Part shown: piece after piece, positions 1,548 to 24,577 of the stretch
Layout of the letters: the number at the start of each line of letters is the position of its first letter
How positions within the stretch are numbered: position 1 is the first letter of the stretch
NCBI GenBank assembly: GCA_964385695.1
Contig: CAYLQA010000023.1
Span: 24,026-56,025, forward strand
Reading direction: 5' to 3'
DNA length: 32,000 nt
Source of the DNA: an uncultured Desulfobulbia bacterium
GTDB lineage: Bacteria > Desulfobacterota > Desulfobulbia > Desulfobulbales > Desulfurivibrionaceae
Program-made: the position numbers and the translations under genes
The notes under the pieces: generated by a model
What the model was told of the DNA's origin: nothing
Databases searched by the model: none
Seen by the model: only the letters and a program-made list of their open reading frames with translations

Positions 1548-1571
1548 CTCAGGAGATAGGGGACTATTTGC

Positions 1572-7109: not shown

Positions 7110-8003
7110 ATGATAATGAGTGCCAAGATTATTAGCGGTACCGAGGTCGCCAAGGAGATTCGTGAGGAACTGAAGGTTGAAGTTGCCGAACTGACTGAGA
7201 AGCATAATGTTGTTCCTGGTTTGGTAACCATCCTTGTCGGAGAGGATCCTGCCTCTCAATCTTATGTAAGTGCTAAGAATAAAACCGCTAAGGCGCTTGG
7301 TATTTACTCTGAGCAGGTGACCCTGCCTGCCGACACCAGCGAAGAAGATCTGTTGGCTACCGTTGAGAAGTATAACAACGACGACAAGATCAACGGTATT
7401 CTGGTTCAGCTCCCCCTGCCTAAGCATATCAATGACAACAAGGTTCTGTATGCCATTAACCCAGATAAGGACGTTGACGGGTTTCACCCCGTAAACGTCG
7501 GCAAAATGGTTCTTGGTGAGCAATGTTACCTGCCTTGCACCCCCCATGGAATTCTTGAGCTTTTAAAGCGCAGTGGCACCGAGACCAGCGGAGCAGAGGT
7601 TGTTATTATCGGCCGCAGTAACATCGTTGGTAAGCCCATTGCCAACCTCATGCTGCAGAAGCGTGATGCCGGAAACGCTACAATTACCCTTTGTCACACC
7701 CGTACGAAAGATATGGCTGCACACTGCAAGCGCGCTGATATCATCATTGCTGCCGTTGGTGTGCCCAACATGGTTACCGCGGACATGGTAAAAGATGGTG
7801 CTGTTATCATCGATGTCGGTGTGAATCGTATTGGTAAAACCGATTCCGGAAAAGCCATCCTTGCCGGTGATGTTGATTTTGATGCGGTGAAGGAAAAGGC
7901 TGGTGCCATTACCCCTGTGCCAGGCGGTGTTGGCCCCATGACCATTACCATGTTAATGAAAAATACTGTCCAGGCTGCCAAGCAGGCTGCAGGATTAGCG
8001 TAA
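7110..8003 (+). CDS. folD: Bifunctional methylene-THF dehydrogenase / methenyl-THF cyclohydrolase
   Basis: Family-typical LVQLPLP, DVDGFHP, GRSNIVGKP and PVPGGVGPMT motifs. The AGGAG at 7102-7106 favours the second ATG at 7116 as the true start (MSAKII...). Confidence 0.93.
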   Translation: MIMSAKIISGTEVAKEIREELKVEVAELTEKHNVVPGLVTILVGEDPASQSYVSAKNKTAKALGIYSEQVTLPADTSEEDLLATVEKYNNDDKINGILVQLPLPKHINDNKVLYAINPDKDVDGFHPVNVGKMVLGEQCYLPCTPHGILELLKRSGTETSGAEVVIIGRSNIVGKPIANLMLQKRDAGNATITLCHTRTKDMAAHCKRADIIIAAVGVPNMVTADMVKDGAVIIDVGVNRIGKTDSGKAILAGDVDFDAVKEKAGAITPVPGGVGPMTITMLMKNTVQAAKQAAGLA

Positions 8004-8071
8004 AGAGATTTCAGAAAGCATTGTCTTTCTGTCAATGAGTGAATCCCCTAAATATTTATTGAGGACTCAAG

Positions 8072-10063
8072 ATGGCGATCACAAGAAACGGATGTGAAGG
8101 TTGCACAGAGATCACCTGCACTTCCACTAAAGAAGTTCTTTCCAAATCTGAAGTTGCCAAAGATGTCACCACTGCCTATGACAGGGTGCAGGCTCGCGGC
8201 ATGTCAGCCTGTCTCTTCGGTTCCGGCGGTACTTGTTGCCGCAACTGCAATATGGGACCTTGCCAGATCATCGACGGTGTTGATGACATGGTCGGTATCT
8301 GCGGTGCAACGGCAGATACGGTTGTGGCCAGAAACTTTGCCCGTATTGTTGCTGCCGGTTCTGCAGCCCATACGGATCACGCCCGTGAGATGGTAAAGGG
8401 TTTTATTGATACCGCTAAGGGTAACGGCCCACACGAGATCAAGGATGTGGATAAGCTCATGAGTCTTGCCGAGCTTTTCGAGGTTGAAACCGAAGGTCGT
8501 GAGGTAAACGACATTGCCCTTGAGATCGGAGAGAAGGCACTTGCCGAGTTCGGTAAACAGGATGATACTCCTGTGACCATGACCAAGCGCGCCGTTGAAA
8601 AACGCCAGAAGCTTTGGAAGGAATTGGATATCGCCCCCCGTGGAATTGATCGCGAGGTTGTCGAGATGATGCACCGCACCCATATGGGTGTTGACCAGGA
8701 TTACAAGAACATCATGCTTCAGGCCTCACGTTGTGCTTTGGGGGACGGCTGGGGTTCTTCCATGCTTTCCACCGAGTTGACCGACATTATGTTCGGCACT
8801 CCGGTACCCCGACGTGCAATTGTTGATCTTGGTGTTTTAAAAGACGACCAGGTTAACGTTACTGTCCATGGCCATGAACCGCTCCTTGCTGAGTCTCTTT
8901 GTATTGCCGCGCAGGATCCTGAAATGCTTGCTCTTGCCAAAAAGGCTGGAGCCAAGGGAATCAACCTTGCCGGTGTGTGTTGTACCGGTAATGAGATTCT
9001 GATGCGTCGCGGTATTCCTGTTGCTGCTGGCTTTGTCCAGCAGGAAATTGCACTTGCAACCGGCGCAGTCGAGGCCATGGTTGTAGATGTTCAGTGTGTC
9101 ATGCAGTCATTGACTGACGTTGTCAAGAATATGCATACCGACATCATTACCACCAATTACCGCGCCAAGATGCCTGGTGGCGTACACATTCAGTTTGAAG
9201 AGCATGCGGCTCTGGAGTCTGCTAAGAGCATTCTGTCTCATGCCATCAAAAATTATAAGAAGCGCGGCAAGGCTTACATTCCGAAAAAAGAGAAACTCGA
9301 TGTAGTCGTCGGTTTCAGCCATGAGACCATCAACTACATGCTTGGTGGTCGGTTCCGCGCCAGTTATCGTCCTTTGAACGATAACATTATCAATGGTCGT
9401 ATTCGTGGTGTTGCCGCAATCGTTGGTTGTGACAACTTTAAGCTCTCTGACGAAGCGCATGAGATCATTGCCCGTGAGCTGATCAAAAACAACGTACTTG
9501 TAGTCGCAACCGGTTGTGCAGCAACAAGCCTTGGTAAGGCAGGGCTTGTTAACCCTGAGGCAGCTAAGTACTGCGGCGAGAGTTTGGCAGAGGTCTGTGA
9601 GACTGTTGGTATGCCTCCGGTCCTTCACATGGGGTCCTGTGTTGACAACAGCCGTATCCTGATTGCTTTGACTCAGATGGTCAAGCAGGGTGGTCTTGGT
9701 GAAGATATTTCAGACCTGCCGGCAATCGGTACTGCCCCCTTGTGGATGAGTGAAAAGGCTGTGGCGATTGGCCAATATTTTGTAGCCAGTGGCGCACAGG
9801 TTGTTTTCCAGAGCCTGCCGGTTACCGGTTCCAAGGAATTCAATGAGTACCTTTGTGAAGGACTCATGGGACCCCTTGGCGCACACTGGAATGTTGAAGA
9901 GGATCCGCTTAAGATTGCCCAGCTGATGATCAGCAAGATCGACCAGAAACGTGACGCTTTAGGTATCAACAAGAAGCAGGATCGCGTTCTTTTCGACATG
10001 GAAATGCGTCGTGACATGGGCGGTGATGGCCTTAAAGACGTCGGCTGCCACGGACCTGCATAA
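8072..10063 (+). CDS. acsA: Anaerobic Ni-Fe-S carbon-monoxide dehydrogenase catalytic subunit (CODH; AcsA/CooS)
   Basis: 663 aa with N-terminal Cys clusters (CLFGSGGTCCRNCNMGPCQI) typical of CooS/AcsA B/D-cluster ligands, and family sequence throughout. A GAGGA RBS precedes the start, and the gene sits next to acsB/C/D. Confidence 0.93.
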   Translation: MAITRNGCEGCTEITCTSTKEVLSKSEVAKDVTTAYDRVQARGMSACLFGSGGTCCRNCNMGPCQIIDGVDDMVGICGATADTVVARNFARIVAAGSAAHTDHAREMVKGFIDTAKGNGPHEIKDVDKLMSLAELFEVETEGREVNDIALEIGEKALAEFGKQDDTPVTMTKRAVEKRQKLWKELDIAPRGIDREVVEMMHRTHMGVDQDYKNIMLQASRCALGDGWGSSMLSTELTDIMFGTPVPRRAIVDLGVLKDDQVNVTVHGHEPLLAESLCIAAQDPEMLALAKKAGAKGINLAGVCCTGNEILMRRGIPVAAGFVQQEIALATGAVEAMVVDVQCVMQSLTDVVKNMHTDIITTNYRAKMPGGVHIQFEEHAALESAKSILSHAIKNYKKRGKAYIPKKEKLDVVVGFSHETINYMLGGRFRASYRPLNDNIINGRIRGVAAIVGCDNFKLSDEAHEIIARELIKNNVLVVATGCAATSLGKAGLVNPEAAKYCGESLAEVCETVGMPPVLHMGSCVDNSRILIALTQMVKQGGLGEDISDLPAIGTAPLWMSEKAVAIGQYFVASGAQVVFQSLPVTGSKEFNEYLCEGLMGPLGAHWNVEEDPLKIAQLMISKIDQKRDALGINKKQDRVLFDMEMRRDMGGDGLKDVGCHGPA

Positions 10064-10118
10064 GCTGCGAGTAACTGGTTTTTTCTAAGAAAGATTTGAG
10101 GATAAGGAATATTAACCG

Positions 10119-12761
10119 ATGAAATCGGGAAGCCGTTTAGAACGGGTATTAGAATCTGGAGAGTTTGCGGTCACGGGCGAACTCGGTCCACCTAAGAACA
10201 GCAATGCTGAGGTGGTTCGGGAAAAGGCTCGCATCCTGAAAGGCAATGTCGATGCAGTCAATATCACCGACTGTCAAACCGCTATTGTCAGGATGTCCAG
10301 CATCAGCGCTGGTCTCATTACCCAATCCGAAGGTGTCGAGCCGGTTATTCAGATGACCTGCCGCGACCGGAACAGGATCGGAATGCAGAGTGATATCCTG
10401 GGCGCCACTGCCCTGGGATTAAAAAACCTTTTATGCCTGACTGGCGATCATCAAAAATTCGGTAATCATCCAGGCTCTAAGGGAGTCTTTGATATGGATT
10501 CCATCCAGCTCATGGGCATGATGAAGACCTTACGTGATGAGAAGAAATTTCAATGCGGTGAGGTCATTAAAAGTGATGAGCCGAAGCTGTTTTTAGGTTG
10601 TGCCGCTAATCCTTTTGCCGGCCCCTCCGAACAGTTCAGAGCTCAACGCCTGGCCAAGAAGGTTGCAAATGGTGCTGACTTTGTTCAGACCCAGATCATA
10701 TATAATGTTGAGCGCTTTGCAAAATTCATGGAAGCTGTGCGCGATATCGGACTGCATGAGAAAGTTCATATTCTCGCTGGTGTTACACCTCCTCGCTCCG
10801 TTGGCATGGCTCGGTACATGAAAAATTTTGTTCCGGGTATGGATGTGACGGATGATGTCATCAAACGTCTTCAAGGCGCCAAAGACAAAGAAGACGAAGG
10901 TATTAACATCTGCGTTGATATTATCAATCAGGTGCGTGAGATAGAAGGTGTTGCCGGTGCCCATGTTATGGCAATTGAATGGGAGACTGCCGTTCCTGAA
11001 ATCGTCAGTCGCGCTGGCCTTGCCGAGCGTCCTGTCTTTGACGATGATGCAGTGAGTGCACCTGTTGCCGACGAAAGCATTGAGGTTCGTACCTCAGAGA
11101 CGAGTGAAGAAGAAAAAGATAGCGTTCTGGCCGCCGCTAAGGAAGAAGCAGCGAAGATTGTTGCCGCCGCTCAAGAAGAAGCTGCAAAGCTTCGGGCACA
11201 ATCAACTGCTGGAGAGTCCATAGCGCCTGACCAGGCAAGTCTTGAAATAGATGAAGCAGGAGAAGATGAAATGAACGAAAGAGAACGTCAAATGGCGCTT
11301 GCGTCTGTCCAGCAAGGACTTGATGCGCTCAGGAAGGCCTTTGGTCTGTCGGATGATCAGTTTGATGCACTGGCTAAATTTGCCGGCGCTGAGGCTATTC
11401 TCACACGCGAGCCACAGGCAGCGTCGGCTCCTGCAAGTCAAGGAGCACCGGCAGCCACACCTGCTGCTCCGGTAGTTGATACCAGTGCAGAGGATGCCAA
11501 AAAGGCTGCCGAGGCCAAGGCTGCTGAAGACGCCAAGAAAGCGCAGGAGGCCAAGAAAGCTGCTGAAGCACAGGCTGCTGAAGATGCCAAGAAGGCTGAA
11601 GAAGCTAAAAAAGTCGCAGAAGCGAAGGCCGCTGAAGAGGCTAAGAAGGCTGCCGAGGCCAAGGCTGCTGAAGAGTCTAAAAAAGCTGCCGAAGCGAAAG
11701 CAGCTGAAGAGACCAAAAAGGCAGAACCTGCTCCGGCAAAGGCAGCTCTTGCTGCCACCGGTGGAATTGAAGCTGCTGAACTTGCCTCAGAATCTACTCC
11801 TTTGGCAGATCGAGCAAGCAAGGTTCCTGCTGACTCATATACGGAAAAGTATACCGGCACAATTCGAGAGAGCGCATTGGGTAATGGCGACAGTGCCATT
11901 ACAGTTGGTGGTGCCAACACCATGCCGTTCCAACTCTTTGAAGGCGATATGCCACGCAAGCCCATGATCGCCATGGATATCGTTGACGTTAAGCCCGAAG
12001 AGTGGCCCGAGACCTTAACCCGTCATTTTGAGGGTGCCATGGACAGCCCTGTTGATTGGGCTAAAAAATGCGTCAATGATTTTAATGCAGACGCACTTTG
12101 TATCTCCTTGGTTTCCACTGACCCCAATGGTCAGAATCGCTCCTCAGCCGATGCGGCTAAGGATGCATCGGAAGTTATTAACGCCGTTGACGTTCCTATT
12201 ATTGTTTGGGGTTGTGGCAATGGCGAAAAAGATACAGACACACTGCGCGAATTGACAGCTATCGTTGGCGACAAGAAGGTCTGCCTGGCCCCGTTGTCCG
12301 ATGCAAACTATCGCTCAATCGGCGCTACTGCCATGGCTTTTCAGCACCCGGTTGTTGCTGCATCACCCATTGATGTTAACTTGGCCAAGCAGCTGAATAT
12401 CCTACTTGAAAACCTTGGTGTAAATCTCGAGAATGTCCTGATCGATCCATCCATCGGTGCTCTCGGTTACGGTATTGAGTACACCTACTCTGTTATGGAG
12501 CGTATTCGCTTAGCCGCTCTCACCCAGCAGGATGAGAAATTACAGGTGCCCTTTATCTGTAATCTCGGCCGCGAGGTCTGGAAGGCAAAAGAGTGTCGCC
12601 TGCCGAGTGATGACATGATCGGCGATCAGGAGACACGCGGTGTCCTCATGGAGGCCATTACCGCTTCTTGTATGCTCATGGCTGGTGGTGAGGTAATGAT
12701 CATGCGTCATCCGCGTGCCATTGCTCTGACCAAATCCTTAATTAACGGTTTGATGGGATAA
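10119..12761 (+). CDS. metF/acsD: Fusion protein: methylene-THF reductase (acetogen-type MetF, aa ~1-300) + long acidic/Ala-rich linker + corrinoid Fe-S protein small subunit (AcsD/CdhD, aa ~575-880)
   Basis: The N-terminus (FAVTGELGPPK...VDAVNITDCQTAIVRMSS...QMTCRDRNR...LTGDH...VHILAGV...GAHVMAI) matches small MetF of Wood-Ljungdahl organisms. The C-terminal ~305 aa (..PIIVWGCGNGEKD...IDPSIGALGYGIEYTYSVMERIR..) matches AcsD/CdhD. One uninterrupted 880-codon frame covers both. Confidence 0.85.
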   Translation: MKSGSRLERVLESGEFAVTGELGPPKNSNAEVVREKARILKGNVDAVNITDCQTAIVRMSSISAGLITQSEGVEPVIQMTCRDRNRIGMQSDILGATALGLKNLLCLTGDHQKFGNHPGSKGVFDMDSIQLMGMMKTLRDEKKFQCGEVIKSDEPKLFLGCAANPFAGPSEQFRAQRLAKKVANGADFVQTQIIYNVERFAKFMEAVRDIGLHEKVHILAGVTPPRSVGMARYMKNFVPGMDVTDDVIKRLQGAKDKEDEGINICVDIINQVREIEGVAGAHVMAIEWETAVPEIVSRAGLAERPVFDDDAVSAPVADESIEVRTSETSEEEKDSVLAAAKEEAAKIVAAAQEEAAKLRAQSTAGESIAPDQASLEIDEAGEDEMNERERQMALASVQQGLDALRKAFGLSDDQFDALAKFAGAEAILTREPQAASAPASQGAPAATPAAPVVDTSAEDAKKAAEAKAAEDAKKAQEAKKAAEAQAAEDAKKAEEAKKVAEAKAAEEAKKAAEAKAAEESKKAAEAKAAEETKKAEPAPAKAALAATGGIEAAELASESTPLADRASKVPADSYTEKYTGTIRESALGNGDSAITVGGANTMPFQLFEGDMPRKPMIAMDIVDVKPEEWPETLTRHFEGAMDSPVDWAKKCVNDFNADALCISLVSTDPNGQNRSSADAAKDASEVINAVDVPIIVWGCGNGEKDTDTLRELTAIVGDKKVCLAPLSDANYRSIGATAMAFQHPVVAASPIDVNLAKQLNILLENLGVNLENVLIDPSIGALGYGIEYTYSVMERIRLAALTQQDEKLQVPFICNLGREVWKAKECRLPSDDMIGDQETRGVLMEAITASCMLMAGGEVMIMRHPRAIALTKSLINGLMG
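11487..11720 (+). repeat. In-frame tandem 18-nt (6-aa) repeat, 13 units, encoding AEDAKK/AAEAKA/AEEAKK hexads inside the metF::acsD linker
   Basis: Read directly from the sequence: AEDAKK AAEAKA AEDAKK AQEAKK AAEAQA AEDAKK AEEAKK VAEAKA AEEAKK AAEAKA AEESKK AAEAKA AEETKK. This repeat generates the spurious ORFs 11438..11974(-) and 11476..11967(+). Confidence 0.9.
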
Positions 12762-12818
12762 TCAACCTCGAACTTTATAAATATTAAAATACCATTACGA
12801 GTTTAGAGGAGTTTACCA

Positions 12819-15023
12819 ATGTCTAAGATAATCTGTTCAGCCGCCATTCGCGGGGCACACAAGATAATCGATATGGCGGAGGAGCAGTTCGAGGAGGCCT
12901 TGAAGAAATATGGCCCCGAACAAGAGGTGTCCTTGCCCAACACCGCTTATTTTCTGCCTATTATATACAGTATGCTCGGCGCCAAGGTGCAAACCGTTGG
13001 TGACATGAAGGATATTTTCGCAGAGTGTCGCAAACTTTTGCCGGCTGAGGTCAGTGAGAACCTCTGGCTCCCATATCTCGCGCCGGCTCTTGATGCTGGT
13101 ATGGCTACCTTCTTTGCCGAGGAAATGTACGAAGCTATTCGCTATCTTAATTCTCCGGAATTCTATACCAAGACCGAAGATCCAACCGATGATAACCTCT
13201 GGCTTGGCGCTGCCGACGACGTTGTTTTTCGTAAGCGTGGTGTTGAGTTCGTAGACGGTTCAGCACCGGGATTTGCTGCTATCATGGGTACCCCGGATGA
13301 TTCTGAGATGGCCGCCAAGATAGCTCTTGAGCTGCAGGAGAAAAATCTCTACATCTTTATGCATGACCAGACCAACGGCAAGAACATGGCCGAACGTCTG
13401 GTGGAACAGGATGTTCAGGTCGGTTGGAACACCCGTCTGGTTCCCTTTGGTAAGAGCTATACCTCAGCAGTCTTTGCCATTGGTTTTGCCTGTCGTGTGG
13501 CCATGGCATTTGGTGGTATTAAGCCTGGCGATTATGCTGGTAACCTTTTGTACAATAAAGATCGGACCTTTGCTTTTGTTATGGCCTTTGGTGATGTTTC
13601 CGACGAGTGGTATGCAAATGCTGCCGGTGCCATCAACTGGGGCTTCCCAACCATATCCGACTATGATATTCCTGAGGTATTGCCGACCGGTATCTGCACC
13701 TACGAGCATGTTGTCAGCAAGGTTCCCCATGAGGAGATCGTACAGAAGGCTATCGAGGTTCGTGGACTTAAGGTCAACGTGACTAAGATCGATATCCCCA
13801 TGTCTTTTGGCCCGGCCTTTGAGGGTGAGCGTGTCCGTAAGGATGATCTCTTTATGGAGTGTGGTGGTGGTCGGACCTCAGGTGTTGAGGTTCTGGTCTC
13901 CAAAGACATGAGTGAGGTTGAAGATGGCCTGGTCACTATTGAAGGACCGGACATCAAGGATATCGAGCAGGGCCAGAACCTGCCAATCGGTATCTTGGTT
14001 GAGGTTGCTGGTCGTGAGATGCAATCTGACTTTGAGCCGATCCTTGAGCGCCAGTTTCATCACCTGATCAATTATATTCAGGGCATTATGCATATGGGCC
14101 AACGAAACATCATGTGGGTCCGTATCGGTAAGGCTGCTGTTGAAAAAGGATTTTCCTTTACCCATTTCGGTAAGGTCCTGCACGGCAAACTGCACCAGGA
14201 GTTCGGTGCCATTGTTGACAAAATTCAGGTCAAGATCTTCACTGAGTTGGACAAGGTAGAAGAGGTACAGGAACTGGCCCGTAAGACATATGCCGAGCGT
14301 GATGAGCGCCTTGGCTCCATGACCGACGAGACCGAGGAGATTTACTACTCCTGCTCGCTCTGTCAGTCCTTTGCCCCCAGCCATATCTGTGTCATTACCC
14401 CGGAGCGGATCGGCATGTGCGGCGCCTACAACTGGCTCGATGGTAAGGCATCATACAACATCAACCCCACCGGCCCCAACCAGCCCATTGAAAAGGGCGA
14501 GGTTATTGATGGTGAACTTGGTATCTTCAAGGGTATCAACGAGTTTGTCAATCAGGCTTCCCGCGGAGCGGTGGAGGAACTTGCCTGCTACTCCTTGATG
14601 AACAGCCCCATGACCGCCTGTGGTTGCTTTGAGGCCATTGCCGCCATGCTGCCGCAATGTAACGGTATCATGGTTGTCAACCGTGACTTCCTCGGCATGA
14701 CCCCATCGGGTATGAAGTTCACCACCCTTGCCGGTATGACCGGTGGTGGTGCACAGACTCCTGGCTTCATGGGTGTTTCCAAGCATTTCATGACCAGCCC
14801 CAAACTCTTTCTGGCCGAGGGCGGACTCAAGCGTGTGGCCTGGTTGCCTAAGGCGATGAAGGATGAGATTGCGGATAAGCTTAAGGAGCGCTGTGAAGAG
14901 ATCGGCATGCCTGAGCTGTTTGACATGATTGCTACAGAAGAGCAGGGCACCACTGAGGAGGAGATCCTTGAGTTCCTCAAAAAGGTAGGACATCCCTGCC
15001 TTGAAATGGAAACAGCTGTTTAG
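12819..15023 (+). CDS. acsB: CO-methylating acetyl-CoA synthase (A-cluster subunit, AcsB/CdhC)
   Basis: 734 aa with A-cluster Cys motifs CSLCQSFAPSHICVITPERIGMCGA and TACGCFE. A GAGGAG RBS precedes the start. Confidence 0.95.
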   Translation: MSKIICSAAIRGAHKIIDMAEEQFEEALKKYGPEQEVSLPNTAYFLPIIYSMLGAKVQTVGDMKDIFAECRKLLPAEVSENLWLPYLAPALDAGMATFFAEEMYEAIRYLNSPEFYTKTEDPTDDNLWLGAADDVVFRKRGVEFVDGSAPGFAAIMGTPDDSEMAAKIALELQEKNLYIFMHDQTNGKNMAERLVEQDVQVGWNTRLVPFGKSYTSAVFAIGFACRVAMAFGGIKPGDYAGNLLYNKDRTFAFVMAFGDVSDEWYANAAGAINWGFPTISDYDIPEVLPTGICTYEHVVSKVPHEEIVQKAIEVRGLKVNVTKIDIPMSFGPAFEGERVRKDDLFMECGGGRTSGVEVLVSKDMSEVEDGLVTIEGPDIKDIEQGQNLPIGILVEVAGREMQSDFEPILERQFHHLINYIQGIMHMGQRNIMWVRIGKAAVEKGFSFTHFGKVLHGKLHQEFGAIVDKIQVKIFTELDKVEEVQELARKTYAERDERLGSMTDETEEIYYSCSLCQSFAPSHICVITPERIGMCGAYNWLDGKASYNINPTGPNQPIEKGEVIDGELGIFKGINEFVNQASRGAVEELACYSLMNSPMTACGCFEAIAAMLPQCNGIMVVNRDFLGMTPSGMKFTTLAGMTGGGAQTPGFMGVSKHFMTSPKLFLAEGGLKRVAWLPKAMKDEIADKLKERCEEIGMPELFDMIATEEQGTTEEEILEFLKKVGHPCLEMETAV

Positions 15024-15099
15024 CCCTTGCTTTGGGCAACAACGAATACATTACGACTTTATTTAATTTGAGTTCTCTATATATGGGAGGAACAGACAG

Positions 15100-16455
15100 A
15101 TGGCTTTAACAGGTATTCAAATCCTCAAAATGCTTCCCAAGAAGAATTGCGGGGAGTGTGGCATTCCGACCTGTCTTGCCTTTGCCATGAAGGTAGCTGC
15201 CGGACAGACCGAGATTGGTGAGTGTCCGTATGTGAGCGATGAGGTCAAAGAGCAGATTGGTGAGGCCTCTGCACCTCCAATTCGCTCTGTGAAAATCGGT
15301 GCTGGTGATTCTGCCTTTACCACTGGTGGTGAGACCTGTCTCTACCGTCATGAAAAGCGCTTTGAAAACCCCACCGGTATCGCTGTCCTTGTTACCACCG
15401 ACATGGGCGACAGTGATGTCGACGGACGTATCAGCCGTTTTAAAGATCTTCGCTATGAGCGTGTCGGCGTTATGCTCAAGGCAGACCTCATTGCAATTAA
15501 AGATGCAAATGGCGACTCTGCTGCTTTTACCGCTCTGACCAAGAAGGTTCTTGACGGCGCAGAGGATGCCAACCTGATTCTCATGAGCGATAATGCCGAC
15601 AACCTCAAGGCTGCTGCCCAAGAGTGTGGTGATCGCAAGCCTTTGCTTTACGGTGCGACCCTTGATAATTCAGATGTTATGGCTGATGTTGCCAAAGAAC
15701 TTGACTGTCCGCTTTCTGTGAAAGGCAGCAATCTTGATGATGCTGTTGCCGTATCAGAAAAGCTTATGGATTCCGGCCTGAAAGACCTGATGATCGATAC
15801 CGGCGCCAGAACCATGAAGGCTGCCTTTGAGGACAATATCGTAGCTCGCCGTTCAGCCATCAAGTCAAAGTACAAGCCCCTTGGCTTTTCCTCCATTACC
15901 TTTCCTTGTGAGATCTCCGATGATCCGCTCATGGAAGCCATGGTCGCTTCGATCCTGATTGCGAAATATGCCGGTATTGTTGTCCTTTCCGACCTGCAGG
16001 GTGATGTACTCTTCCCGCTCTTGCTTGAGCGTCTGAACATCTTCACCGATCCACAGCGTCCCATGGTTGTTCAGGAGGATACTTACTCCATCAATGGTCC
16101 GGCAGAGGATGCACCTGTTCTTATCACCTGTAATTTCTCTCTCACCTACTTTATTGTTTCCGGTGAGATTGAGGGAAGCAAGGTGCCCAGCTGGCTGCTG
16201 ATCAAGGATACTGAGGGGCTTTCCGTGCTCACCGCCTGGGCTGCAGGCAAGTTTGGCGCGGACATGGTTGCCCAGTTTATCAATAAATCAGGCATTCTGG
16301 AAAAGGTGAAACATCGTGATTTGATTATCCCGGGGTACCTTGCCTCCATGAAGGGTGAGCTTGAAGAGGAGCTTCCCGATTGGAATATCACCATTGGTCC
16401 TCGCGAGGCTGGTCATCTTCCCGCCTTTTTGAAAGAATGGAAACCTTCAGCATAA
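15100..16455 (+). CDS. acsC: Corrinoid iron-sulfur protein large subunit (AcsC/CdhE)
   Basis: 451 aa with the N-terminal [4Fe-4S] motif KKNCGECGIPTCLAFAMKVA...CPY typical of the CFeSP large subunit. A GGGAGG RBS precedes the start. Confidence 0.93.
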   Translation: MALTGIQILKMLPKKNCGECGIPTCLAFAMKVAAGQTEIGECPYVSDEVKEQIGEASAPPIRSVKIGAGDSAFTTGGETCLYRHEKRFENPTGIAVLVTTDMGDSDVDGRISRFKDLRYERVGVMLKADLIAIKDANGDSAAFTALTKKVLDGAEDANLILMSDNADNLKAAAQECGDRKPLLYGATLDNSDVMADVAKELDCPLSVKGSNLDDAVAVSEKLMDSGLKDLMIDTGARTMKAAFEDNIVARRSAIKSKYKPLGFSSITFPCEISDDPLMEAMVASILIAKYAGIVVLSDLQGDVLFPLLLERLNIFTDPQRPMVVQEDTYSINGPAEDAPVLITCNFSLTYFIVSGEIEGSKVPSWLLIKDTEGLSVLTAWAAGKFGADMVAQFINKSGILEKVKHRDLIIPGYLASMKGELEEELPDWNITIGPREAGHLPAFLKEWKPSA

Positions 16456-16529
16456 AAGATAGTGATAAGTAATGAGGAAACATCGATACCTTTAATCTTG
16501 TTTCCTCTTGCTGAATTTTGAGTTGACGC

Positions 16530-19500
16530 ATGAATATTACAATAAACGGTAACGAAATTGTTGCTGAAGAAGGGATAACTATCCTTGAAGCGGCAAAACG
16601 TGCAGATATTGAAATCCCCACCCTCTGTCATGTGAAGCAGGGCACCTCGGACGTCCCTTGTGAGCTTTGTATTGTCGAGGTTGAAGGTGCAGATGAGCCT
16701 GTTCGTTCATGTAGTACTCCCATTGCCGAGTCAATGGTTGTTGTGACCGATTCCGAGCAGCTTGTTGCCCAGCGCAAAGAGCGCTTGAGCACGATAATGT
16801 CCAGTCACTTTGGCGATTGCAAGGCACCTTGTAATCTTACCTGTCCCGGTCAGATTAACGTTCAAGGTTATATTGCCCATGTTGCCAAAGGACAATATGA
16901 AGAGGCCTTGCGCCTTGTCATGGAACGGAATCCGTTTCCATTTTCCGTTGGTCGTGTTTGCCCGCGTTTTTGTGAGACCCGATGTCGTCGAATCCTTGTC
17001 GATGAGTCTGTTTCCATCAACCATCTCAAGCGGTTTGTTGCTGACTGGGCCATGGCCAACAAGGTCGACCTGAAGATCCCCAGGGAAAAACATACAGGCA
17101 AAAGAATTGCTGTTATTGGGGGTGGCCCATCCGGCCTTAGCGCTGCATATTTCCTTGCTCGCAAGGGCCACGATGTGACCGTTCTTGAGTCTTCACCCAA
17201 GCTTGGTGGAATGCTGCGCTACGGTCTGCCTGAATATAAAATCCCCAGCGATGTCCTTGATTATGAGATCAACATGATCTTGAGAATGGGCATCAATGTT
17301 CGCTTGAGTCAGAAATGGGGGGTTGATTTCACCCTGCAGGAACTGCGCGAGCAGGGATTTGATTCCATACTTATCTCCACTGGTACCCCTGTTGACGAAA
17401 GTCTTGATATCCCCGGTTGCGCATTACCCAAGGTAGTGAAGGCCGGTAAATTCCTGCGCGACGTCAATGAGGGCAAGGTCAAAGATTACGGCCGTTCAGC
17501 TGTTGTGTTCGGTGGCAACAACATTGCCATGGAAACCGCTCGTTCCTTGATTCGTAGTGGTGTTGACGAGGTAACCATCATCTATCCTCGGGCTCAGACC
17601 GAAATGCCTGCTAACCAGCGGACAATTCGCGAGGCAGAGCGCGATGGTGTGCAGTTCCTCTTGATGGCTTCTCCTGTTAATTTTGTTGATACAGACAACG
17701 GTATTAACGTTGAGTTGATCAGAATGAAACTCGGCGAGCCGGATAAAAAGGGTGTACGTCATCCTGAGGCAATTCCTGGTTCTAGTGTTAACATCCTCGT
17801 TGATACGGTTGTTGTCTCCCAGGGACTGAAGGCCTGTAAAGATAAATTTGAAGGCGGCGAACTTGAAGAAACCCTTGAGCTTACACCAAAGGGAAATCTC
17901 AAGGCCAATCCGAGAACCGCTCTGACCAATCACCCAGGGATTTTTGCTGCCGGTGATGTGACCAGTGGCCCGCGCTCTGTGATTCAGGCTGTGGTAGCTG
18001 CTCGTCGTGCAGCTGAGAATGTGCATTCCCAGGTAATGGGTGTACCAAAGCCACCGGCTGAAAGTCGTTTTAACTTTCACCGTGGACGCACCTTTGATGA
18101 TGTTGATCTTAAAAACTTTGAAGGCATCAACATCAAGCTGCGCGAAAAAATGCCTGGCCGTCCGCCTGAGATCAGCACTCAAGATTTTGACGAGTACAAA
18201 CTCGGCTTCAATGAAAAGATGGCCGTGAATGAGGCTAAGCGTTGTTTGTCCTGCGGTTGCTCGGCATTTGAGCGATGCGATCTCAAGAAAGAGGCTTTGG
18301 AACTCGGCCTTGATCCCAACCGCACTGGTATGGGGAAAACGCCTGATTACTCCAAAGATATATCCCATCCCACCATCATGGTGGATATGAATAAGTGTAT
18401 CTATTGTAAGCGTTGCGAGAATAGCTGCGATTACGATGCCCTGAGCATTTCAGCCGAAGGGACTGATGAGCAGGGTAGACCTCAAGGGCTTTCCTTTCAG
18501 TTCAAGGAAAACTGTGTTTCCTGTGGTGCCTGTGTGGATAACTGTTCAACCGGTGCGCTTAACAAAAAGGATGCCATGGTTCCAGTGGTAAGCGAGGAAA
18601 TGCGCGAGGTGCGCACGACTTGTCCTTACTGTGGTGCAGGCTGTCAGATGATTCTCCGGGTTAAGGGTAATACCTTGATGGAGGTTACCTCTGACCCTGA
18701 TTTGGCACCGAACTACGGCGCACTTTGTGTGAAAGGACGTTTTGCCCATAACTTTGTCCAGCATAAGGATCGCTTGACCCAGCCTTTGGTTCGGCGCAAC
18801 GGTCAACTGGTTGAGACCACTTGGGAAGATGCACTGAATGTAGTTGCTAAGCGTTTCTTCGATATCAAGTCCATGTACGGAGCTGACGCAATTTCCGGCT
18901 TCAGTTGTGCAAGGGCCACCAACGAAGAAAACTTTTTGATGCAAAAATTTATGCGGACAGCGATCGGAACGAATAATATCGATCACTGTGCTCGACTCTG
19001 ACACGCTCCCACGGTGGCCAGTTTGGCCCTCACCTTCGGCAGCGGCGCAATGACCAACTCCATCGGAGACGCGGTCAACAATAAAACAGATCTTTTCTTT
19101 ATGATTGGTTCCAACCCGGACACCTCTCATCCGACCATAGGTCTTCGCATCAACCAGGCTGTCAGTAAAGGCGCCAAGTTGGTAGTTGTAGACCCACGAA
19201 AGACCAATCTTGCTGAGCGGGCTGATCTTTGGTTGCGCATTAATCCCGGTACTGATGTTGCCTTGCTTAATGGCTTGATGAATATCATCCTTGAAGAAGA
19301 CCTCTGGGATAAGTCCTTTGTTGAGAATCGAACTGAGGATTTTGATGAACTTCAAAACCTCGTGAAAAAGTATACCCCTGAAAAGGTTGAACAGATTACC
19401 GGTATTGCCCAGGATGACCTGTATACCGCAGCGCGTATGTATGCTGCTGAGGGACGTCACGCCATCTACCACGGAATGGGCATTACTCATTACACCACAG

Positions 19501-20651
19501 GTACTGACCGTGTGAAGAGTATCGCCAACATGGCCATGCTTTGCGGCAAGGTTGGTGTTGAAGGTGGTGGTTGCAACCCGCTACGTGGCCAGAACAATGT
19601 CCAGGGTGCCTGTGATATGGGTGCTCTGTTCAACACCTTGCCTGGTTACGGTTCTCTTGATAACGACGAGCTGCTTGATAAATATGAGGATGTTTGGAAG
19701 GTCAAGCTGCCCAGGAGGCCAGGTAAGCCAGCCACTGAGGTTTGGGAGAATGTTATCAAGGGTGATATCCGTGCCCTTTACATCTTTGGTGAAGATCCGG
19801 CTGTTGCCGATGCTAATATTTCCCATGTGCAGGAAGCATTGGGAGAGGCTGACTTTGTTGTGGTTCAGGATCTCTTCCTCACCGATACGGCGAAGATGGC
19901 CGACGTTGTCTTACCTGCCGCATGTTTTGCGGAAAAAGACGGGACCTTCGCTTGTACAGAGCGTCGCGTGCAGCGTGTGCGTAAAGCGGTTGATCCCCCA
20001 GGACAGGCTCGACCTGATTGGCAGATCTTTACCGAACTTTCCAAGAAGATGGGCTACGAGATGGAGTACAACTCTGCCGAGGACATCTTTGAGGAGATTC
20101 GGAACCTGCTTCCTCAGTACAAAGGTATAACCTACGAGCGTATTGAAGAGGTCGGTTTGCAGTGGCCTGTGCCCAATGAGGATCATCCCGGCACCCCGGT
20201 TCTGCATACAGAGTCCTTTACTCGTGGGCGCGGCCTCTTCATTCCTGAAGAATATATTCCTCCGGTTGAGCTTGCTGATGAAGAATATCCCATGCTCTTT
20301 ACCACCGGCCGTGACCTTGCCCGTTATAACTTCTCCAGCATGACCGGCAAGACCACTGAAATTGATGAAATCAGCCCTGAGTGTTTTGCAGAGGTTAATC
20401 CTGTTGATGCTGAGCGTATGGGAATCAAAGACCTTGATTGGTTGCGTCTGAGTTCCCGCCGTGGCTCGATTGATATCCGTGCCAAGCTCACTGAACGCTC
20501 GCAAGAGGGTACAATTTTTACAACCTATAATCATCTTGAGACCCTGGTGAACCTTCTCACCTTGGATGCTTTGGATAGGTTATCCAGAACGCCTGAGTAC
20601 AAGCTTTGCGCGATCAAAGTTGAAGTATTAGGAGATGAGTTGCCGAACTAA
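16530..20651 (+). CDS. fdhA: Selenocysteine-containing formate dehydrogenase fusion (1373 aa): 2Fe-2S ferredoxin + GltD-like NAD(P)H/FAD oxidoreductase + 2x[4Fe-4S] + Mo/W-bis-PGD FdhA catalytic domain; UGA(Sec) at 18999-19001
   Basis: ORFs 16530..19001 and 19014..20651 share one frame, and reading through the TGA gives [30 protein letters not shown], the FdhA/FdhF active-site motif. GltD-like elements are CPGQINVQGYI, GRVCPRFCETRCRR, the Rossmann motif IAVIGGGPSGLSAAYFLARKG and a second dinucleotide site, VVFGGNNIAMETA. The MopB [4Fe-4S] motif is TCPYCGAGCQM...CVKG. Confidence 0.88.
19013..19034 (+). promoter_or_regulatory. Candidate bacterial SECIS hairpin for the FDH UGA
   Basis: GGU-GGCC-AGUUU-GGCC-(CUC bulge)-ACC, starting 12 nt after the UGA. 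The apical loop contains G-U. Confidence 0.5.
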
Positions 20652-20688
20652 CCTCGGCAATACAATATTTTTATAAGTGGAGTAATGT

Positions 20689-23600: not shown

Positions 23601-23751
23601 TAAGGCCGAGACCATCACCGCCTCATGTAAAGGTTGTGGTATCTGTGCCTCACGCTGTCCGGTATTCGCCATCTCCATGGGGGGCTTTACCGATGAACAG
23701 ATTACTGCGCAAATTACCGCCTTTGGTGCAACCGAAGAGGAGTCAGCATAA
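20689..23751 (+). CDS. hdrA: Selenocysteine-containing HdrA-like flavoprotein, two tandem HdrA-type modules (1020 aa); UGA(Sec) at 20875-20877
   Basis: ORFs 20689..20877 and 20893..23751 share one frame. Read-through gives [15 protein letters not shown]...[31 protein letters not shown], where canonical HdrA has DCSMCILAPK. A second Rossmann ([19 protein letters not shown]) appears at aa ~597. The paralogous motifs [20 protein letters not shown] and [20 protein letters not shown] are both present. The C-terminus is a 2x[4Fe-4S] ferredoxin ([24 protein letters not shown]). Confidence 0.88.
20899..20914 (+). promoter_or_regulatory. Candidate bacterial SECIS hairpin for the hdrA UGA
   Basis: GAGGCC-GGUC-GGUCUC: a 6-bp stem (one G-U pair) with a GGUC tetraloop, starting 22 nt after the UGA. 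Confidence 0.5.
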
Positions 23752-24512
23752 TGAGTAAGGAAGAATTCAACCCCAAGATCCTGGGGTTCCTCTGTAACTG
23801 GTGCTGTTATGCAGCCGCGGATAGTGCGGGTGTCTCCCGTTATCAGTATCCGCCCAACCTGCGTACCATCAGAGTCATGTGTACCGGACGCCTTGATCCG
23901 GCCTTTGTTCTGCGCGGCTTTGCCGAGGGAGCGGATGCCATTTTTACAGGCGGCTGACAACTTGGCGAATGTCATTACCAGGTAGGTAATTACGATGCTA
24001 TGGGAGTAAGCGCGCTGGTGAAAAAGGTTCTGGCCGAGGTTGGGATCAAACCTGAGCGTTTTAATCTGCAATGGGCCTCTGCTGCCGAGGCGCCTCGTTT
24101 TGTCAAGCTCATCACCGATTTTACCCAGGAGATGAAAGAGCTTGGGCCGATTGGTCAGGCTGAAGGACTTGATCCAGAGGAGCTTAAAGCACGCCTGGCC
24201 ACGGCGGCAAATTTGGTCAGTGGGCGCAAGCTGCGTGTCGGGTTTGGTAACGCGACCAAGGCACTGCGCAAGGATAATGTCATGGACCAGGAGACCATCA
24301 CCTCGGTGATTGACTCCAAAATGGAAAAATCCATCAGCTCCGGTTTGGTAGAAGAAGGTCTGCTGACCGTTCTCGCTAAAGAGCCTCTTTCCATGACTGC
24401 CTTAGTGAAAGCGCTGAACAGCAAGAAGGATGTTGTTGAGAAGCTGCTCACCACCATGAGCAAGCAGGGCAAGGTGGAGCAGAAAAAGAAGAAGTGGTGT
24501 CTGGCTGGCTAG
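23751..24512 (+). CDS. mvhD: Selenocysteine-containing MvhD/FlpD-family [2Fe-2S] electron-transfer protein with ~115-aa C-terminal extension (253 aa); UGA(Sec) at 23955-23957
   Basis: ORFs 23751..23957 and 24000..24512 share one frame. Read-through gives KILGFLCNWCCYAAADSAG...GADAIFTGG-U-QLGECHYQVGNYDA, where canonical MvhD has GGCHxGDCHY. The ATG overlaps the hdrA TAA (TAATG). Confidence 0.85.
23974..23990 (+). promoter_or_regulatory. Candidate bacterial SECIS hairpin for the mvhD UGA
   Basis: AUUACC-AGGUA-GGUAAU: a perfect 6-bp stem with a loop containing GGU, starting 17 nt after the UGA. Confidence 0.5.
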
Positions 24513-24542
24513 ATAAACCAGCTTTACATTGAGATATATCTA

Positions 24543-24577
24543 GGGCCGTGGCAGTAATGCCGCGGCCCTTTTTTTTT
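24543..24577 (+). terminator. Rho-independent terminator closing the Wood-Ljungdahl/FDH/Hdr operon
   Basis: 10-bp GC-rich stem GGGCCGTGGC / GCCGCGGCCC (one G-U pair) with loop AGTAAT, then T9 (24569-24577). The T-run overlaps the stop codon of the convergent REC-PilZ gene. Confidence 0.8.

What the first reader, a model, noticed from the sequence alone, without database searches (positions are those of the whole stretch)
10119..12761. MetF (methylene-THF reductase) fused to AcsD (corrinoid Fe-S protein small subunit) in one 880-aa protein
Seen directly: a single uninterrupted frame encodes an acetogen-type MetF domain, a ~270-aa linker and a full AcsD/CdhD domain. The gene lies between the CODH and acsB/acsC.

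Established: MetF makes CH3-THF. AcsE then moves the methyl group to the AcsC/AcsD corrinoid protein, which delivers it to AcsB.

Inference: the fusion tethers the last THF-dependent redox step to the methyl acceptor complex. That could channel CH3-THF or recruit MetF's electron donor (perhaps the downstream HdrA/MvhD/FDH module) to the ACS/CFeSP assembly. The classical MetF partners are not encoded nearby: no MetV, and no HdrBC.
Basis: partly seen in the sequence, partly recalled or inferred. Interest (0 to 1): 0.7.

Follow-up and report, generated by a model that had tools for sequence, protein, structure and literature searches.

The report
Known MetF–AcsD fusion, Desulfobulbales type
One 880-residue protein really does join the enzyme that makes methyl-tetrahydrofolate to a subunit of the corrinoid protein that accepts that methyl group, but this fusion was already named in 2016, is conserved across Desulfobulbales, and how it works has not been tested.

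Summary
Window 10119-12761 (+) is one stop-free 880-codon gene. It encodes a complete MTHFR/MetF barrel (aa 1-305), a 268-aa Cys-free Ala/Glu/Lys-rich linker, and a complete AcsD domain (aa 574-880), and it lies between acsA and acsB-acsC.

It is not an artefact. More than 120 database proteins share the architecture, and 62 of 66 species-level loci with both domains read through in one frame.

It is not new. The D. alkaliphilus genome paper (PMC5016858) lists an "mthfr/acsD ... fusion", citing Pierce 2008.

What this analysis adds:
- The MetF domain descends from MetV-dependent (acetogen-type) MetF.
- Two sister clades keep hdrA-mvhD-(HdrC-like)-(mvhD)-metV directly upstream of the fusion.
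- In Desulfobulbales an HdrC-like/MvhD/MetV unit sits elsewhere in the genome, and AcsE probably does too.
- The linker holds a conserved 48-aa helical island and an (EAAAK)n-like helix.

The most likely reading is a read-through fusion that tethers a MetV/HdrA/MvhD-fed reductase to the corrinoid protein. Channelling of methyl-THF is not shown. Interest is modest.

The parts
10119..12761 (+). metF~acsD fusion gene, 880 aa plus stop
   Evidence: Single ORF. Both domains have E values near 1e-40. Conserved as one frame in 62 of 66 loci.
10119..11033 (+). MetF (MTHFR) catalytic barrel, aa 1-305, of the MetV-dependent lineage
   Evidence: PF02219 covers the full profile. The catalytic-motif residues E21, D110 and Q192 align to the human and Thermus MTHFR motifs and are invariant in 54 fusion proteins. 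The domain is 75-90% identical across complete fusion loci.
11034..11837 (+). Linker, aa 306-573: 268 aa with 82 Ala, 40 Glu, 28 Lys and no Cys
   Evidence: Composition. Length across homologues is 236-450 aa, median 275. Mostly low pLDDT in the AF2 model.
11106..11207 (+). Predicted helix within the linker, aa 330-363
   Evidence: AF2/DSSP helix H330-363, block pLDDT 66-81.
11259..11402 (+). Conserved helical island in the linker, aa 381-428 (GEDEMNERERQMALASVQQGLDALRKAFGLSDDQFDALAKFAGAEAIL)
   Evidence: Column identity is 0.74-0.76, against 0.31-0.54 in the flanking linker. Sixteen columns are invariant. The motif is conserved in clade B. There is no Pfam match. An HMM of the island hits only clade A and B fusion proteins.
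11493..11723 (+). Imperfect AEAKK-type repeat, aa 459-535, predicted as one long helix
   Evidence: Tandem Repeats Finder reports periods of 18, 36, 54 and 72 nt at 11491-11725. AF2 predicts helix H474-521 at low pLDDT. AT skew peaks at 0.50 in this region.
11838..12758 (+). AcsD (CFeSP small subunit) barrel, aa 574-880
   Evidence: NF003376 scores above its cut-off. The domain aligns to essentially the whole of 2h9a_B, 4c1n_B and 4djd_D.
8072..10063 (+). acsA, the Ni-CODH catalytic subunit, directly upstream
   Evidence: TIGR01702 scores 605 bits against a cut-off of 478.
12819..15023 (+). acsB, acetyl-CoA synthase
   Evidence: NF040764 scores 1076 bits.
15100..16455 (+). acsC, CFeSP large subunit and the expected partner of the AcsD domain
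   Evidence: NF003195 scores 588 bits against a cut-off of 306.
16530..20651 (+). GltD/NfnB-like NAD(P)H module fused to a formate dehydrogenase catalytic subunit, with an in-frame TGA (Sec) at 18999-19001
   Evidence: Domain hits. The reading frame continues across the TGA.
20689..23751 (+). hdrA-like gene, 1020 aa, with an in-frame TGA (Sec) at 20875-20877; candidate electron-input flavoprotein
   Evidence: HdrA2/HdrA models at E 5e-260. Read-through shown. The homologue in L084 is called as 58 + 957 aa.
23751..24512 (+). mvhD-like gene, 253 aa, with an in-frame TGA (Sec) at 23955-23957
   Evidence: FlpD/VhuD hits. Read-through shown.
24542..24569 (+). Strong intrinsic-terminator-like hairpin that probably ends the folD-to-mvhD unit
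   Evidence: 12-bp stem with 9 G-C pairs followed by a run of T; it is the strongest such site in 6500-25500.
7110..8003 (+). folD, which supplies the methylene-THF substrate of the MetF domain
   Evidence: Pfam THF_DHG_CYH and THF_DHG_CYH_C.

Best explanation
The gene encodes one real, conserved bifunctional polypeptide. Its N-terminal half is the flavin-binding catalytic subunit of a MetV-dependent (acetogen-type) methylene-THF reductase. Its C-terminal half is the small subunit (AcsD) of the corrinoid iron-sulfur protein. A 236-450-residue helical and disordered Ala/Glu/Lys-rich tether joins them. The fusion most likely arose by read-through between adjacent metF and acsD genes in an ancestral operon of the form hdrA-mvhD-hdrC-like-mvhD-metV-metF-acsD-acsB-acsC-acsE. 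It has since been retained in three clades of sulfur-cycling Thermodesulfobacteriota. Proposed working model: the AcsD domain pairs with AcsC to form the corrinoid protein. The MetF domain still docks MetV, which in this lineage is encoded elsewhere together with an HdrC-like ferredoxin and an MvhD. MetF receives electrons through the selenocysteine-containing HdrA/MvhD pair encoded at the end of the same operon, with no HdrB involved. Methyl-THF is therefore made at fixed 1:1 stoichiometry with, and within roughly 10-20 nm of, the corrinoid acceptor. A separately encoded AcsE carries out the methyl transfer. What is shown here: the ORF, both domains, conservation of catalytic motifs, conservation of the fusion, and the synteny links to metV, hdrA and mvhD. 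What is inferred: the physical complex, the electron path, and any kinetic benefit of tethering.
For: The ORF and both domains are established. The architecture is conserved: more than 120 protein clusters, 62 of 66 loci in one frame, and a third clade at 50% identity. The MetF catalytic motifs are invariant, and the MetF domain is on average slightly more conserved than the AcsD domain. The closest unfused MetFs sit next to MetV and GltD/HdrA/MvhD-type flavoproteins. Clade B encodes hdrA-mvhD-metV-fusion-acsB-acsC-acsE. Locus L084 encodes hdrA(Sec)-mvhD-Fer4-FlpD-metV-fusion-acsB. The HdrC-like/MvhD/MetV unit is conserved elsewhere in Desulfobulbales genomes, including MAG DB1, which also has the fusion. 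AcsE-like hits exist in D. alkaliphilus and D. sulfexigens. The linker contains a conserved island. Most homologues have no Met near the AcsD boundary (102 of 126), so an internal start is unlikely. The cluster looks like a single operon, with one strong terminator after mvhD.
Against: There is no biochemical, proteomic or structural evidence that the protein stays full length or forms a supercomplex, and none was found in the literature. MetV, the HdrC-like protein and AcsE could not be checked in the window's own genome, because only 32 kb is available. A tether of 268 residues or more allows the domains to be far apart, so channelling of a freely diffusible folate is doubtful. Some genomes carry other MTHFR genes that could be the real partner of the displaced MetV unit: MetF~MetV proteins in L081 and L083, and two further MTHFR genes in D. 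hydrothermale. The AF2 model is of low confidence (pLDDT 62.6) and gives no information on contacts between the domains.
Confidence: 0.6

Rival explanations
1. The fusion is a near-neutral frozen accident. Loss of the stop codon between adjacent metF and acsD genes produced a fusion whose halves work independently. The linker is only a tolerated spacer and may be clipped by proteases, and there is no channelling or recruitment function.
For: Linker length (236-450 aa) and sequence vary widely and are mostly low-complexity. Fusions between neighbouring Wood-Ljungdahl genes are common in other combinations: AcsB~AcsD, AcsD~AcsA, MetV~MetF and MetV~MetF~MetH. In sister clades metF lies exactly where read-through into acsD would occur.
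Against: The fusion is retained without reversion across three clades down to 50% identity and in about 66 species-level genomes. The linker contains a 48-aa island that is as conserved as the catalytic domains, with 16 invariant columns. The linker has never been reduced to a short connector.
Confidence: 0.3
2. The MetF domain is no longer a working reductase. It serves as a structural or regulatory module, and another MTHFR paralogue in the genome makes the methyl-THF.
For: Other MTHFR genes exist in related genomes: MetF~MetV proteins of 511-542 aa in L081 and L083, and two further MTHFR loci listed for D. hydrothermale. No MetV is encoded in the window.
Against: The Pfam match is full length. 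The catalytic Glu, Asp and Gln motifs are invariant. The MetF half is 75-90% identical across complete fusion loci and is on average slightly more conserved than the AcsD half. MetV is conserved in the lineage.
Confidence: 0.05
3. The AcsD domain itself acts as the methyl-THF:corrinoid methyltransferase, as in the archaeal gamma-delta complex. On this view the fusion hands methyl-THF directly to AcsD and makes AcsE unnecessary, which would explain why acsE is absent from the cluster.
For: No acsE lies within 10 kb of the fusion in the window or in any main-clade locus. AcsD is a TIM barrel of the same broad kind as AcsE (established knowledge).
Against: D. alkaliphilus and Desulfocapsa sulfexigens both give AcsE BLAST hits (E 1.9e-50 and 3.6e-46, 89% coverage), against 6.7e-22 in the ACS-less Desulfobulbus propionicus. 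Clade B fusions keep acsE next to acsC. The AcsD domain is closest to bacterial CFeSP small subunits, which work with AcsE.
Confidence: 0.04
4. The fusion is a sequencing or assembly artefact, such as a missed stop codon or frameshift in the repeat-rich region.
For: The linker contains imperfect tandem repeats. At least 10 MAG contigs end inside it, and 4 loci show frame changes.
Against: Independent assemblies, including the finished D. alkaliphilus genome (P0067, 893 aa), show the same uninterrupted frame. The linker island is conserved at the protein level.
Confidence: 0.01

Closest known systems
The 'mthfr/acsD' fusion of delta proteobacterium MLMS-1 and Desulfurivibrio alkaliphilus AHT2 (Melton et al. 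2016, PMC5016858, citing Pierce et al. 2008)
   Same: The domain order is the same. The neighbourhood is the same: fhs, pulE-like ATPase, folD, acsA, fusion, acsB, acsC, FDH. The D. alkaliphilus protein P0067 is 893 aa and 77% identical over the best-aligned segment. Both belong to the same family-level lineage, Desulfurivibrionaceae.
   Different: Nothing essential differs; the window is another member from an uncultured relative. The published mention is only a figure label and abbreviation, with no analysis of partners, linker or function.
Moorella thermoacetica MetFV-HdrABC-MvhD methylene-THF reductase (type III MTHFR of acetogens; established knowledge, also discussed in PMC10553843)
   Same: The MetF lineage is MetV-dependent. 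It is genetically linked to hdrA and mvhD inside or next to the acs cluster.
   Different: No HdrB was found in the window or in the L084 operon. In place of HdrC there is an HdrC-like di-ferredoxin together with a second MvhD. HdrA and MvhD are selenoproteins. MetF is covalently joined to AcsD. In Desulfobulbales metV is displaced from the cluster.
Bacterial corrinoid iron-sulfur protein AcsC/AcsD (Carboxydothermus 2h9a, Moorella 4djd)
   Same: The AcsD domain aligns end to end with the solved small subunits (E 2e-80), and AcsC is encoded two genes downstream.
   Different: The solved AcsD proteins are free-standing polypeptides of about 310 aa. Here AcsD carries an N-terminal extension of about 570 aa made of MetF plus the tether.
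Other intra-pathway fusions of Wood-Ljungdahl genes: AcsB~AcsD, AcsD~AcsA, MetV~MetF, MetV~MetF~MetH
   Same: Each is a covalent joining of operon neighbours. The AcsB~AcsD fusion examined (P0412) and the unfused AcsDs with N-terminal extensions carry long Pro/Ala/Glu-rich segments on the N-terminal side of AcsD.
   Different: The partners differ. The conserved island of the MetF~AcsD linker was not detected in them.
Engineered (EAAAK)n rigid helical linkers and natural Ala/Glu/Lys-rich single helices such as TolA domain II (comparison from memory)
   Same: The AEAKKAAEAKAAEE repeats at aa 459-535 have the same composition and are predicted as one continuous helix.
   Different: The prediction has low confidence (pLDDT below 50). 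Helicity and rigidity have not been tested, and the repeat number varies between homologues.

Membership tests
Methylenetetrahydrofolate reductase (Pfam PF02219) | Full-length match above the gathering score | tested here: met
   132.1 bits against a cut-off of 24; profile positions 1-287 of 287 at aa 6-300.
Methylenetetrahydrofolate reductase (Pfam PF02219) | Catalytic Glu, folate-binding Asp and the TQ motif | tested here: met
   TGE21LGPP, CLTGD110 and GADFVQTQ192 align with the human and Thermus motifs. All three residues are invariant in 54 fusion proteins. The functional roles assigned to these residues come from the E. coli and human literature, recalled from memory.
Methylenetetrahydrofolate reductase (Pfam PF02219) | Bound flavin and methylene-THF reductase activity | not testable with these tools
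   Requires purified protein.
MetVF-type (acetogen-type) MTHFR | Closest unfused relatives are MetFs paired with MetV | tested here: met
   L077, L078 and L079 carry MetF at 61-66% identity, each directly downstream of a PF12225 MetV with E about 1e-34.
MetVF-type (acetogen-type) MTHFR | MetV encoded adjacent to MetF | tested here: not met
   The window has no MetV-like sequence (best tblastn E 0.2), and no main-clade locus has one within 10 kb. MetV is adjacent in clades B and C. In Desulfobulbales it is encoded elsewhere.
Type III MTHFR complex (MetFV-HdrABC-MvhD) | HdrA and MvhD genes linked to metF | tested here: met
   hdrA at 20689-23751 and mvhD at 23751-24512 lie in the same apparent operon. 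They are directly upstream of the fusion in clades B and C.
Type III MTHFR complex (MetFV-HdrABC-MvhD) | HdrB (CCG-domain subunit) and HdrC present | tested here: not met
   No HdrB or CCG-domain protein was found in the window or in the L084 operon. There is only an HdrC-like di-ferredoxin, which scores below the curated cut-off: TIGR03290 76 bits against 160.
CFeSP small subunit AcsD/CdhD | Family model above its cut-off and full-length similarity to solved AcsD structures | tested here: met
   PF03599 scores 143 bits against 24.8. NF003376 scores 370 against 280. 2h9a_B residues 7-304 of 310 are aligned, E 2e-80. The stricter models NF040759 (310 against 430) and TIGR00381 (218 against 253) are not reached.
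CFeSP small subunit AcsD/CdhD | Partner large subunit AcsC encoded alongside | tested here: met
   acsC at 15100-16455; NF003195 scores 588 bits. It is syntenic in 61 loci.
CFeSP small subunit AcsD/CdhD | Forms a heterodimer with AcsC and supports corrinoid methylation | not testable with these tools
   Biochemical property.
Published mthfr/acsD fusion (MLMS-1 / D. alkaliphilus type) | Same domain order, same gene neighbourhood and high identity to the D. alkaliphilus protein | tested here: met
   P0067 (893 aa, both Pfam domains, 77% identical over the best segment). Neighbourhood of pulE, folD, acsA, fusion, acsB, acsC and FDH.

The most novel reading that the evidence does not exclude
The fusion may be the visible anchor of a Wood-Ljungdahl metabolon. 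In this reading an HdrB-less, selenocysteine-dependent HdrA-MvhD-(HdrC-like)-MvhD-MetV-MetF reductase is physically tethered to the corrinoid protein and hence to CODH/ACS. The conserved 48-residue island (aa 381-428) would be the docking site for one partner, such as MetV, HdrA or AcsE. The exergonic methylene-THF reduction could then be coupled by flavin-based electron bifurcation to supply low-potential electrons to the CODH in the same assembly.
Probability: 0.15. Interest if true: 0.65.

Novelty: already known. Interest (0 to 1): 0.33.

Why it matters
The electron donor and energetics of methylene-THF reduction are a long-standing uncertainty in the Wood-Ljungdahl pathway, especially outside acetogens. 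A natural covalent link between the reductase and the corrinoid methyl acceptor, together with conserved genetic links to MetV, HdrA and MvhD but not HdrB, offers a tractable system: D. alkaliphilus and Desulfocapsa are cultured. It could be used to ask whether the methyl branch is physically organised around CODH/ACS and what feeds MetF. There is also a practical point. The protein is usually annotated only as 'subunit delta', so pathway reconstructions can miss the MTHFR step or assign it to other genes. The repeat-rich linker also breaks MAG assemblies.

Tried and rejected
- **Artefact or frameshift:** rejected on the basis of 62 of 66 intact frames and the finished D. alkaliphilus genome.
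- **AcsE replaced by the fusion:** acsE is absent from the cluster, but PMC12827605 Supplementary Table 6 shows AcsE hits in D. alkaliphilus and D. sulfexigens, and clade B keeps acsE. Rejected as unlikely.
- **MetV lost from the lineage:** rejected. A 222-aa MetV that is 77-100% identical within the family is widespread in Desulfobulbaceae and Desulfurivibrionaceae MAGs, in a conserved three-gene unit.
- **Linker derived from MetV or carrying Fe-S ligands:** rejected. It has no Cys and no similarity to MetV.
- **Internal start codon producing free AcsD:** 102 of 126 homologues, including the window, have no Met near the domain boundary.
- **Family assignment for the linker or island:** Pfam at E up to 10 returned only noise. 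The island HMM hit only clade A and B fusion proteins.
- **Rfam scan of the window:** nothing found.
- **Literature:** searches for functional work on the fusion, and for the D. alkaliphilus locus tags, found only the 2016 genome note. Pierce 2008 and Ragsdale & Pierce 2008 are not held.
- **AF2 of the full-length protein:** only a moderate model (pLDDT 62.6, pTM 0.41). It was not used for fold searches or for inferring contacts between the domains.
Full report
**1. Observation**

Window 10119-12761 (+) is a single 880-codon ORF with an ATG start. An AAGGA Shine-Dalgarno-like motif lies 10-14 nt upstream. The predicted mass is about 93.8 kDa.

Pfam places a complete MTHFR domain at aa 6-300, covering profile positions 1-287 of 287 (E 3e-38). 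It places a CdhD/AcsD domain at aa 586-862 (E 1e-41). NCBIfam's AcsD subfamily NF003376 is exceeded (370 bits against a cut-off of 280) over aa 574-879. Residues 575-874 align to residues 7-304 of the 310-residue solved CFeSP small subunit of Carboxydothermus (2h9a_B, E 2e-80), so the AcsD domain is complete.

The segment in between is 268 aa. It contains 82 Ala, 40 Glu, 28 Lys and no Cys. It also carries imperfect 18/36/54/72-nt repeats at 11491-11725.

| Coordinates | Gene |
|---|---|
| 2641-4404 | fhs |
| 4590-6803 | pilB/pulE-like ATPase |
| 7110-8003 | folD |
| 8072-10063 | acsA |
| 10119-12761 | fusion |
| 12819-15023 | acsB |
| 15100-16455 | acsC |
| 16530-24512 | FDH, HdrA and MvhD genes |

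**2. Not an artefact**

A search of 5.8 billion proteins returned more than 120 clusters of 860-906 aa carrying both Pfam domains. They come mostly from Desulfurivibrionaceae, Desulfobulbaceae and Desulfocapsa, and include the finished genome of Desulfurivibrio alkaliphilus (P0067, 893 aa).

A scan of one genome per species gave 79 loci. In 62 of the 66 loci that hold both domains, the domains lie in one stop-free frame of 861-1060 codons. Three of the four exceptions (L036, L038, L055) change frame inside the MetF barrel; only L018 changes frame between the two domains. At least ten short contigs simply end inside the repeat-rich linker.

**3. Already described**

[quoted passage not shown] It states that the cluster was defined earlier for delta proteobacterium MLMS-1 by Pierce et al. 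2008 (PMC5016858). Pierce 2008 itself is not held.

Nine literature searches found no functional, proteomic or structural work on the fusion. The Dissulfurimicrobium genome paper assigns MTHFR only to genes outside the acs cluster. This suggests the fused MetF is easily masked by the usual 'subunit delta' annotation.

**4. What kind of MetF it is**

The domain is only distantly related to solved NAD(P)H-type MTHFRs (E about 1e-10). Even so, the catalytic motifs align: TGE21LGPP, CLTGD110 and GADFVQTQ192. These residues are invariant in 54 aligned fusion proteins.

Across complete fusion loci the MetF half is 75-90% identical. On average this is slightly higher than the AcsD half at 65-82%, which argues for a working enzyme.

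The nearest unfused relatives (61-66% identical; L077-L079) each lie immediately downstream of a MetV gene (PF12225, E about 1e-34). They lie near large GltD/HdrA/MvhD-type flavoproteins.

**5. Comparative synteny reveals the partners**

- **Clade A** (the window, about 55 Desulfobulbales loci) has the order folD-acsA-fusion-acsB-acsC-gltD::fdhA-hdrA(-mvhD). It has no metV and no acsE within 10 kb.
- **Clade B** (L042, L043, L046, L061, L071) has fusions spanning 1029-1060 codons stop to stop. Its MetV is 78% identical to that of Dissulfurirhabdus thermomarina. The order is fhs-folD-acsA-hdrA-mvhD-metV-fusion-acsB-acsC-acsE-fdh.
- **A third clade** at 50% identity (P0335, 845 aa; locus L084) has the order fhs-folD-acsA-hdrA (called as 58 + 957 aa, that is, split at a Sec codon)-mvhD-Fer4 protein-FlpD-metV-fusion-acsB.

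In Desulfobulbales the unit formed by a Fer4_8/Fer4_17 protein, FlpD and MetV exists but is located elsewhere. All four contigs examined show it (L080-L083). One comes from a Desulfurivibrio sp. MAG. Another comes from Desulfobulbaceae bacterium DB1, which also has the fusion (P0080). This MetV family is 77-100% identical across many Desulfobulbaceae and Desulfurivibrionaceae MAGs.

The small Fer4 protein has an HdrC/QmoC-like N-terminal domain (E about 2e-21, below the curated cut-offs) and a second ferredoxin domain. No HdrB was seen anywhere.

AcsE is probably also encoded elsewhere. Published BLAST tables give AcsE hits of 1.9e-50 for D. alkaliphilus and 3.6e-46 for D. sulfexigens at 89% coverage, against 6.7e-22 in the ACS-less Desulfobulbus propionicus.

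**6. The linker**

Linker length ranges from 236 to 450 aa, with a median of 275. Overall composition is 30% Ala, 14% Glu and 11% Lys.

The linker is not featureless. Residues 381-428 (GEDEMNERERQMALASVQQGLDALRKAFGLSDDQFDALAKFAGAEAIL) show 0.74-0.76 column identity, against 0.31-0.54 for the flanking linker. Sixteen columns are invariant. The core motif AL.S...GL.AL[KR]K..GL.D..[FY][DE]AL..F..AE..L is kept in clade B.

The island has no Pfam match.

An AF2 model from 54 homologues has only moderate confidence (pLDDT 62.6). It predicts two beta/alpha barrels, a helix at 330-363, the island as three short helices, and the AEAKK repeats as one long helix at 474-521. The last feature resembles the (EAAAK)n rigid spacers used in protein engineering; that comparison is from memory.

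Most homologues have no Met near the AcsD boundary (102 of 126), so an internal start giving free AcsD is unlikely.

**7. Mechanism**

Best reading, with confidence about 0.6 overall: about 0.9 for a real, conserved, bifunctional protein and about 0.5 for the partner and electron-path model. It is a read-through fusion of adjacent metF and acsD genes that keeps a MetV/HdrA/MvhD-fed reductase tethered at 1:1 stoichiometry to the corrinoid protein. A separate AcsE carries out the methyl transfer.

'No MetV' holds only locally. Channelling of methyl-THF is not shown and is doubtful, given a tether of 268 residues or more and a diffusible folate.

The main rival (about 0.3) is a near-neutral fusion. 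Other fusions of Wood-Ljungdahl operon neighbours are frequent, including AcsB~AcsD, AcsD~AcsA, MetV~MetF and MetV~MetF~MetH. The conserved island and the lack of any reversion across three clades argue for at least some function in the linker.

Three further rivals are weak: an inactive MetF domain, an AcsE-independent AcsD acting as methyltransferase, and an artefact. The evidence against each is given in the rival explanations.

**8. Operon context**

Gaps between genes from folD to mvhD are short and all genes are on the same strand. The only strong intrinsic terminator lies at 24542-24569, just after mvhD. Rfam finds nothing in the window.

Three genes of the downstream redox module need selenocysteine read-through:

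| Gene | Length | In-frame TGA |
|---|---|---|
| gltD-like::fdhA | 1373 aa | 18999 |
| hdrA | 1020 aa | 20875 |
| mvhD | 253 aa | 23955 |

**9. Verdict**

The finding is real and correctly described, but it is an already-named feature of Desulfurivibrionaceae and Desulfobulbales acs clusters. The window adds one more member from an uncultured relative; its best matches are 76-83% identical.

The value added here lies in four things: the three-clade picture, the displaced HdrC-like/MvhD/MetV unit, the HdrB-less module, and the conserved linker island. Together they turn a figure label into testable hypotheses. Interest is modest (0.33).

Noticed in passing
window 16530-20651 (+), TGA at 18999-19001: A GltD/NfnB-like NAD(P)H-binding flavoprotein module with 2Fe-2S and 4Fe-4S domains is fused in one frame to a formate dehydrogenase catalytic subunit. 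The frame is interrupted only by an in-frame TGA, presumably selenocysteine. The full product is 1373 aa.
   Followed up: partly
window 20689-23751 (+), TGA at 20875-20877: The HdrA-like gene really starts at 20689 and reads through a TGA (..TNDCSL-U-ILAPK..), giving 1020 aa. This is much longer than typical HdrA and has three HdrA2-like stretches. The homologue in L084 is called as 58 + 957 aa, which points to the same Sec site.
   Followed up: partly
window 23751-24512 (+), TGA at 23955-23957: The MvhD-like gene starts at 23751, overlapping the hdrA stop codon (TAATG), and reads through a TGA (FTGG-U-QLGECHY). Its C-terminal ~110 aa have no family match.
   Followed up: partly
window 4590-6803 (+): A PilB/PulE-type ATPase with an MshEN c-di-GMP-binding N-terminus and a C-terminal cyclic-nucleotide-binding domain sits between fhs and folD. 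It is syntenic in 22 related loci and appears as 'pulE' in the abbreviation list of the published D. alkaliphilus paper. Its role in a carbon-fixation operon is unexplained.
   Followed up: no
L080 7003-8669; L081, L082 and L083 at equivalent positions: A conserved three-gene unit occurs away from the acs cluster in Desulfobulbales: an HdrC-like di-ferredoxin (186-188 aa), MvhD/FlpD (140-178 aa) and MetV (222 aa). It is preceded by glutamine-amidotransferase-like and SIS/CBS genes.
   Followed up: yes
L081 2494-4122; L083 1-1052: A second MTHFR of 511-542 aa, with MetF fused to a C-terminal MetV domain, lies a few kb upstream of the HdrC-like/MvhD/MetV unit in two contigs. It could be an anabolic paralogue or an alternative partner of that unit.
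   Followed up: no
P0334 (clade B fusion), linker residues about 520-650: The extra ~170 aa of the clade B linker contain two TPR-like repeats (..AKGNVLLHKQDFSGALEVFEQALSIDPDDEQAK.. and ..AKGNVALQKGDPSAAREFFEKAFQLDPNDAKAK..), which suggests a protein-binding module inside the tether.
   Followed up: no
P0412, P0480, P0442, P0353, P0402, P0341, P0340: Other fusions involve the same domains: AcsB~AcsD (up to 1209 aa), AcsD~AcsA (1122 aa), MetV~MetF~MetH (1681 aa), MetV~MetF (546 aa), and MetF~response-regulator receiver (455 aa).
   Followed up: partly
P0338, P0415, P0473 N-termini; P0412 and P0335 linkers: Unfused or differently fused AcsDs carry N-terminal extensions with a different amphipathic helical motif (for example LKSELKTQIESELRNEISREIVGDIIGALKERL, or ILSDLKASLKNIKAGMESLEKGIERLEEE). 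This may be a distant counterpart of the island in the window's linker, but the island HMM did not detect it.
   Followed up: partly
loci L022, L024, L028, L029, L032, L044, L048, L053, L070, L073: MAG contigs repeatedly end inside the linker, so the repeat-rich region fragments short-read assemblies and can make the two halves look like separate truncated genes.
   Followed up: partly
window 11476-11967 (+, other frame) and 11438-11974 (-): Long ORFs of 163 and 178 aa overlap the linker in other frames. They are by-products of the GCN/GAR/AAR repeat composition, not genes.
   Followed up: yes
window 330-2528 (+): nifS (a cysteine desulfurase) and an unusually long thyX (318 aa, with two Thy1 stretches) lie upstream of fhs. 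They are syntenic in 8 and 20 related loci respectively.
   Followed up: no
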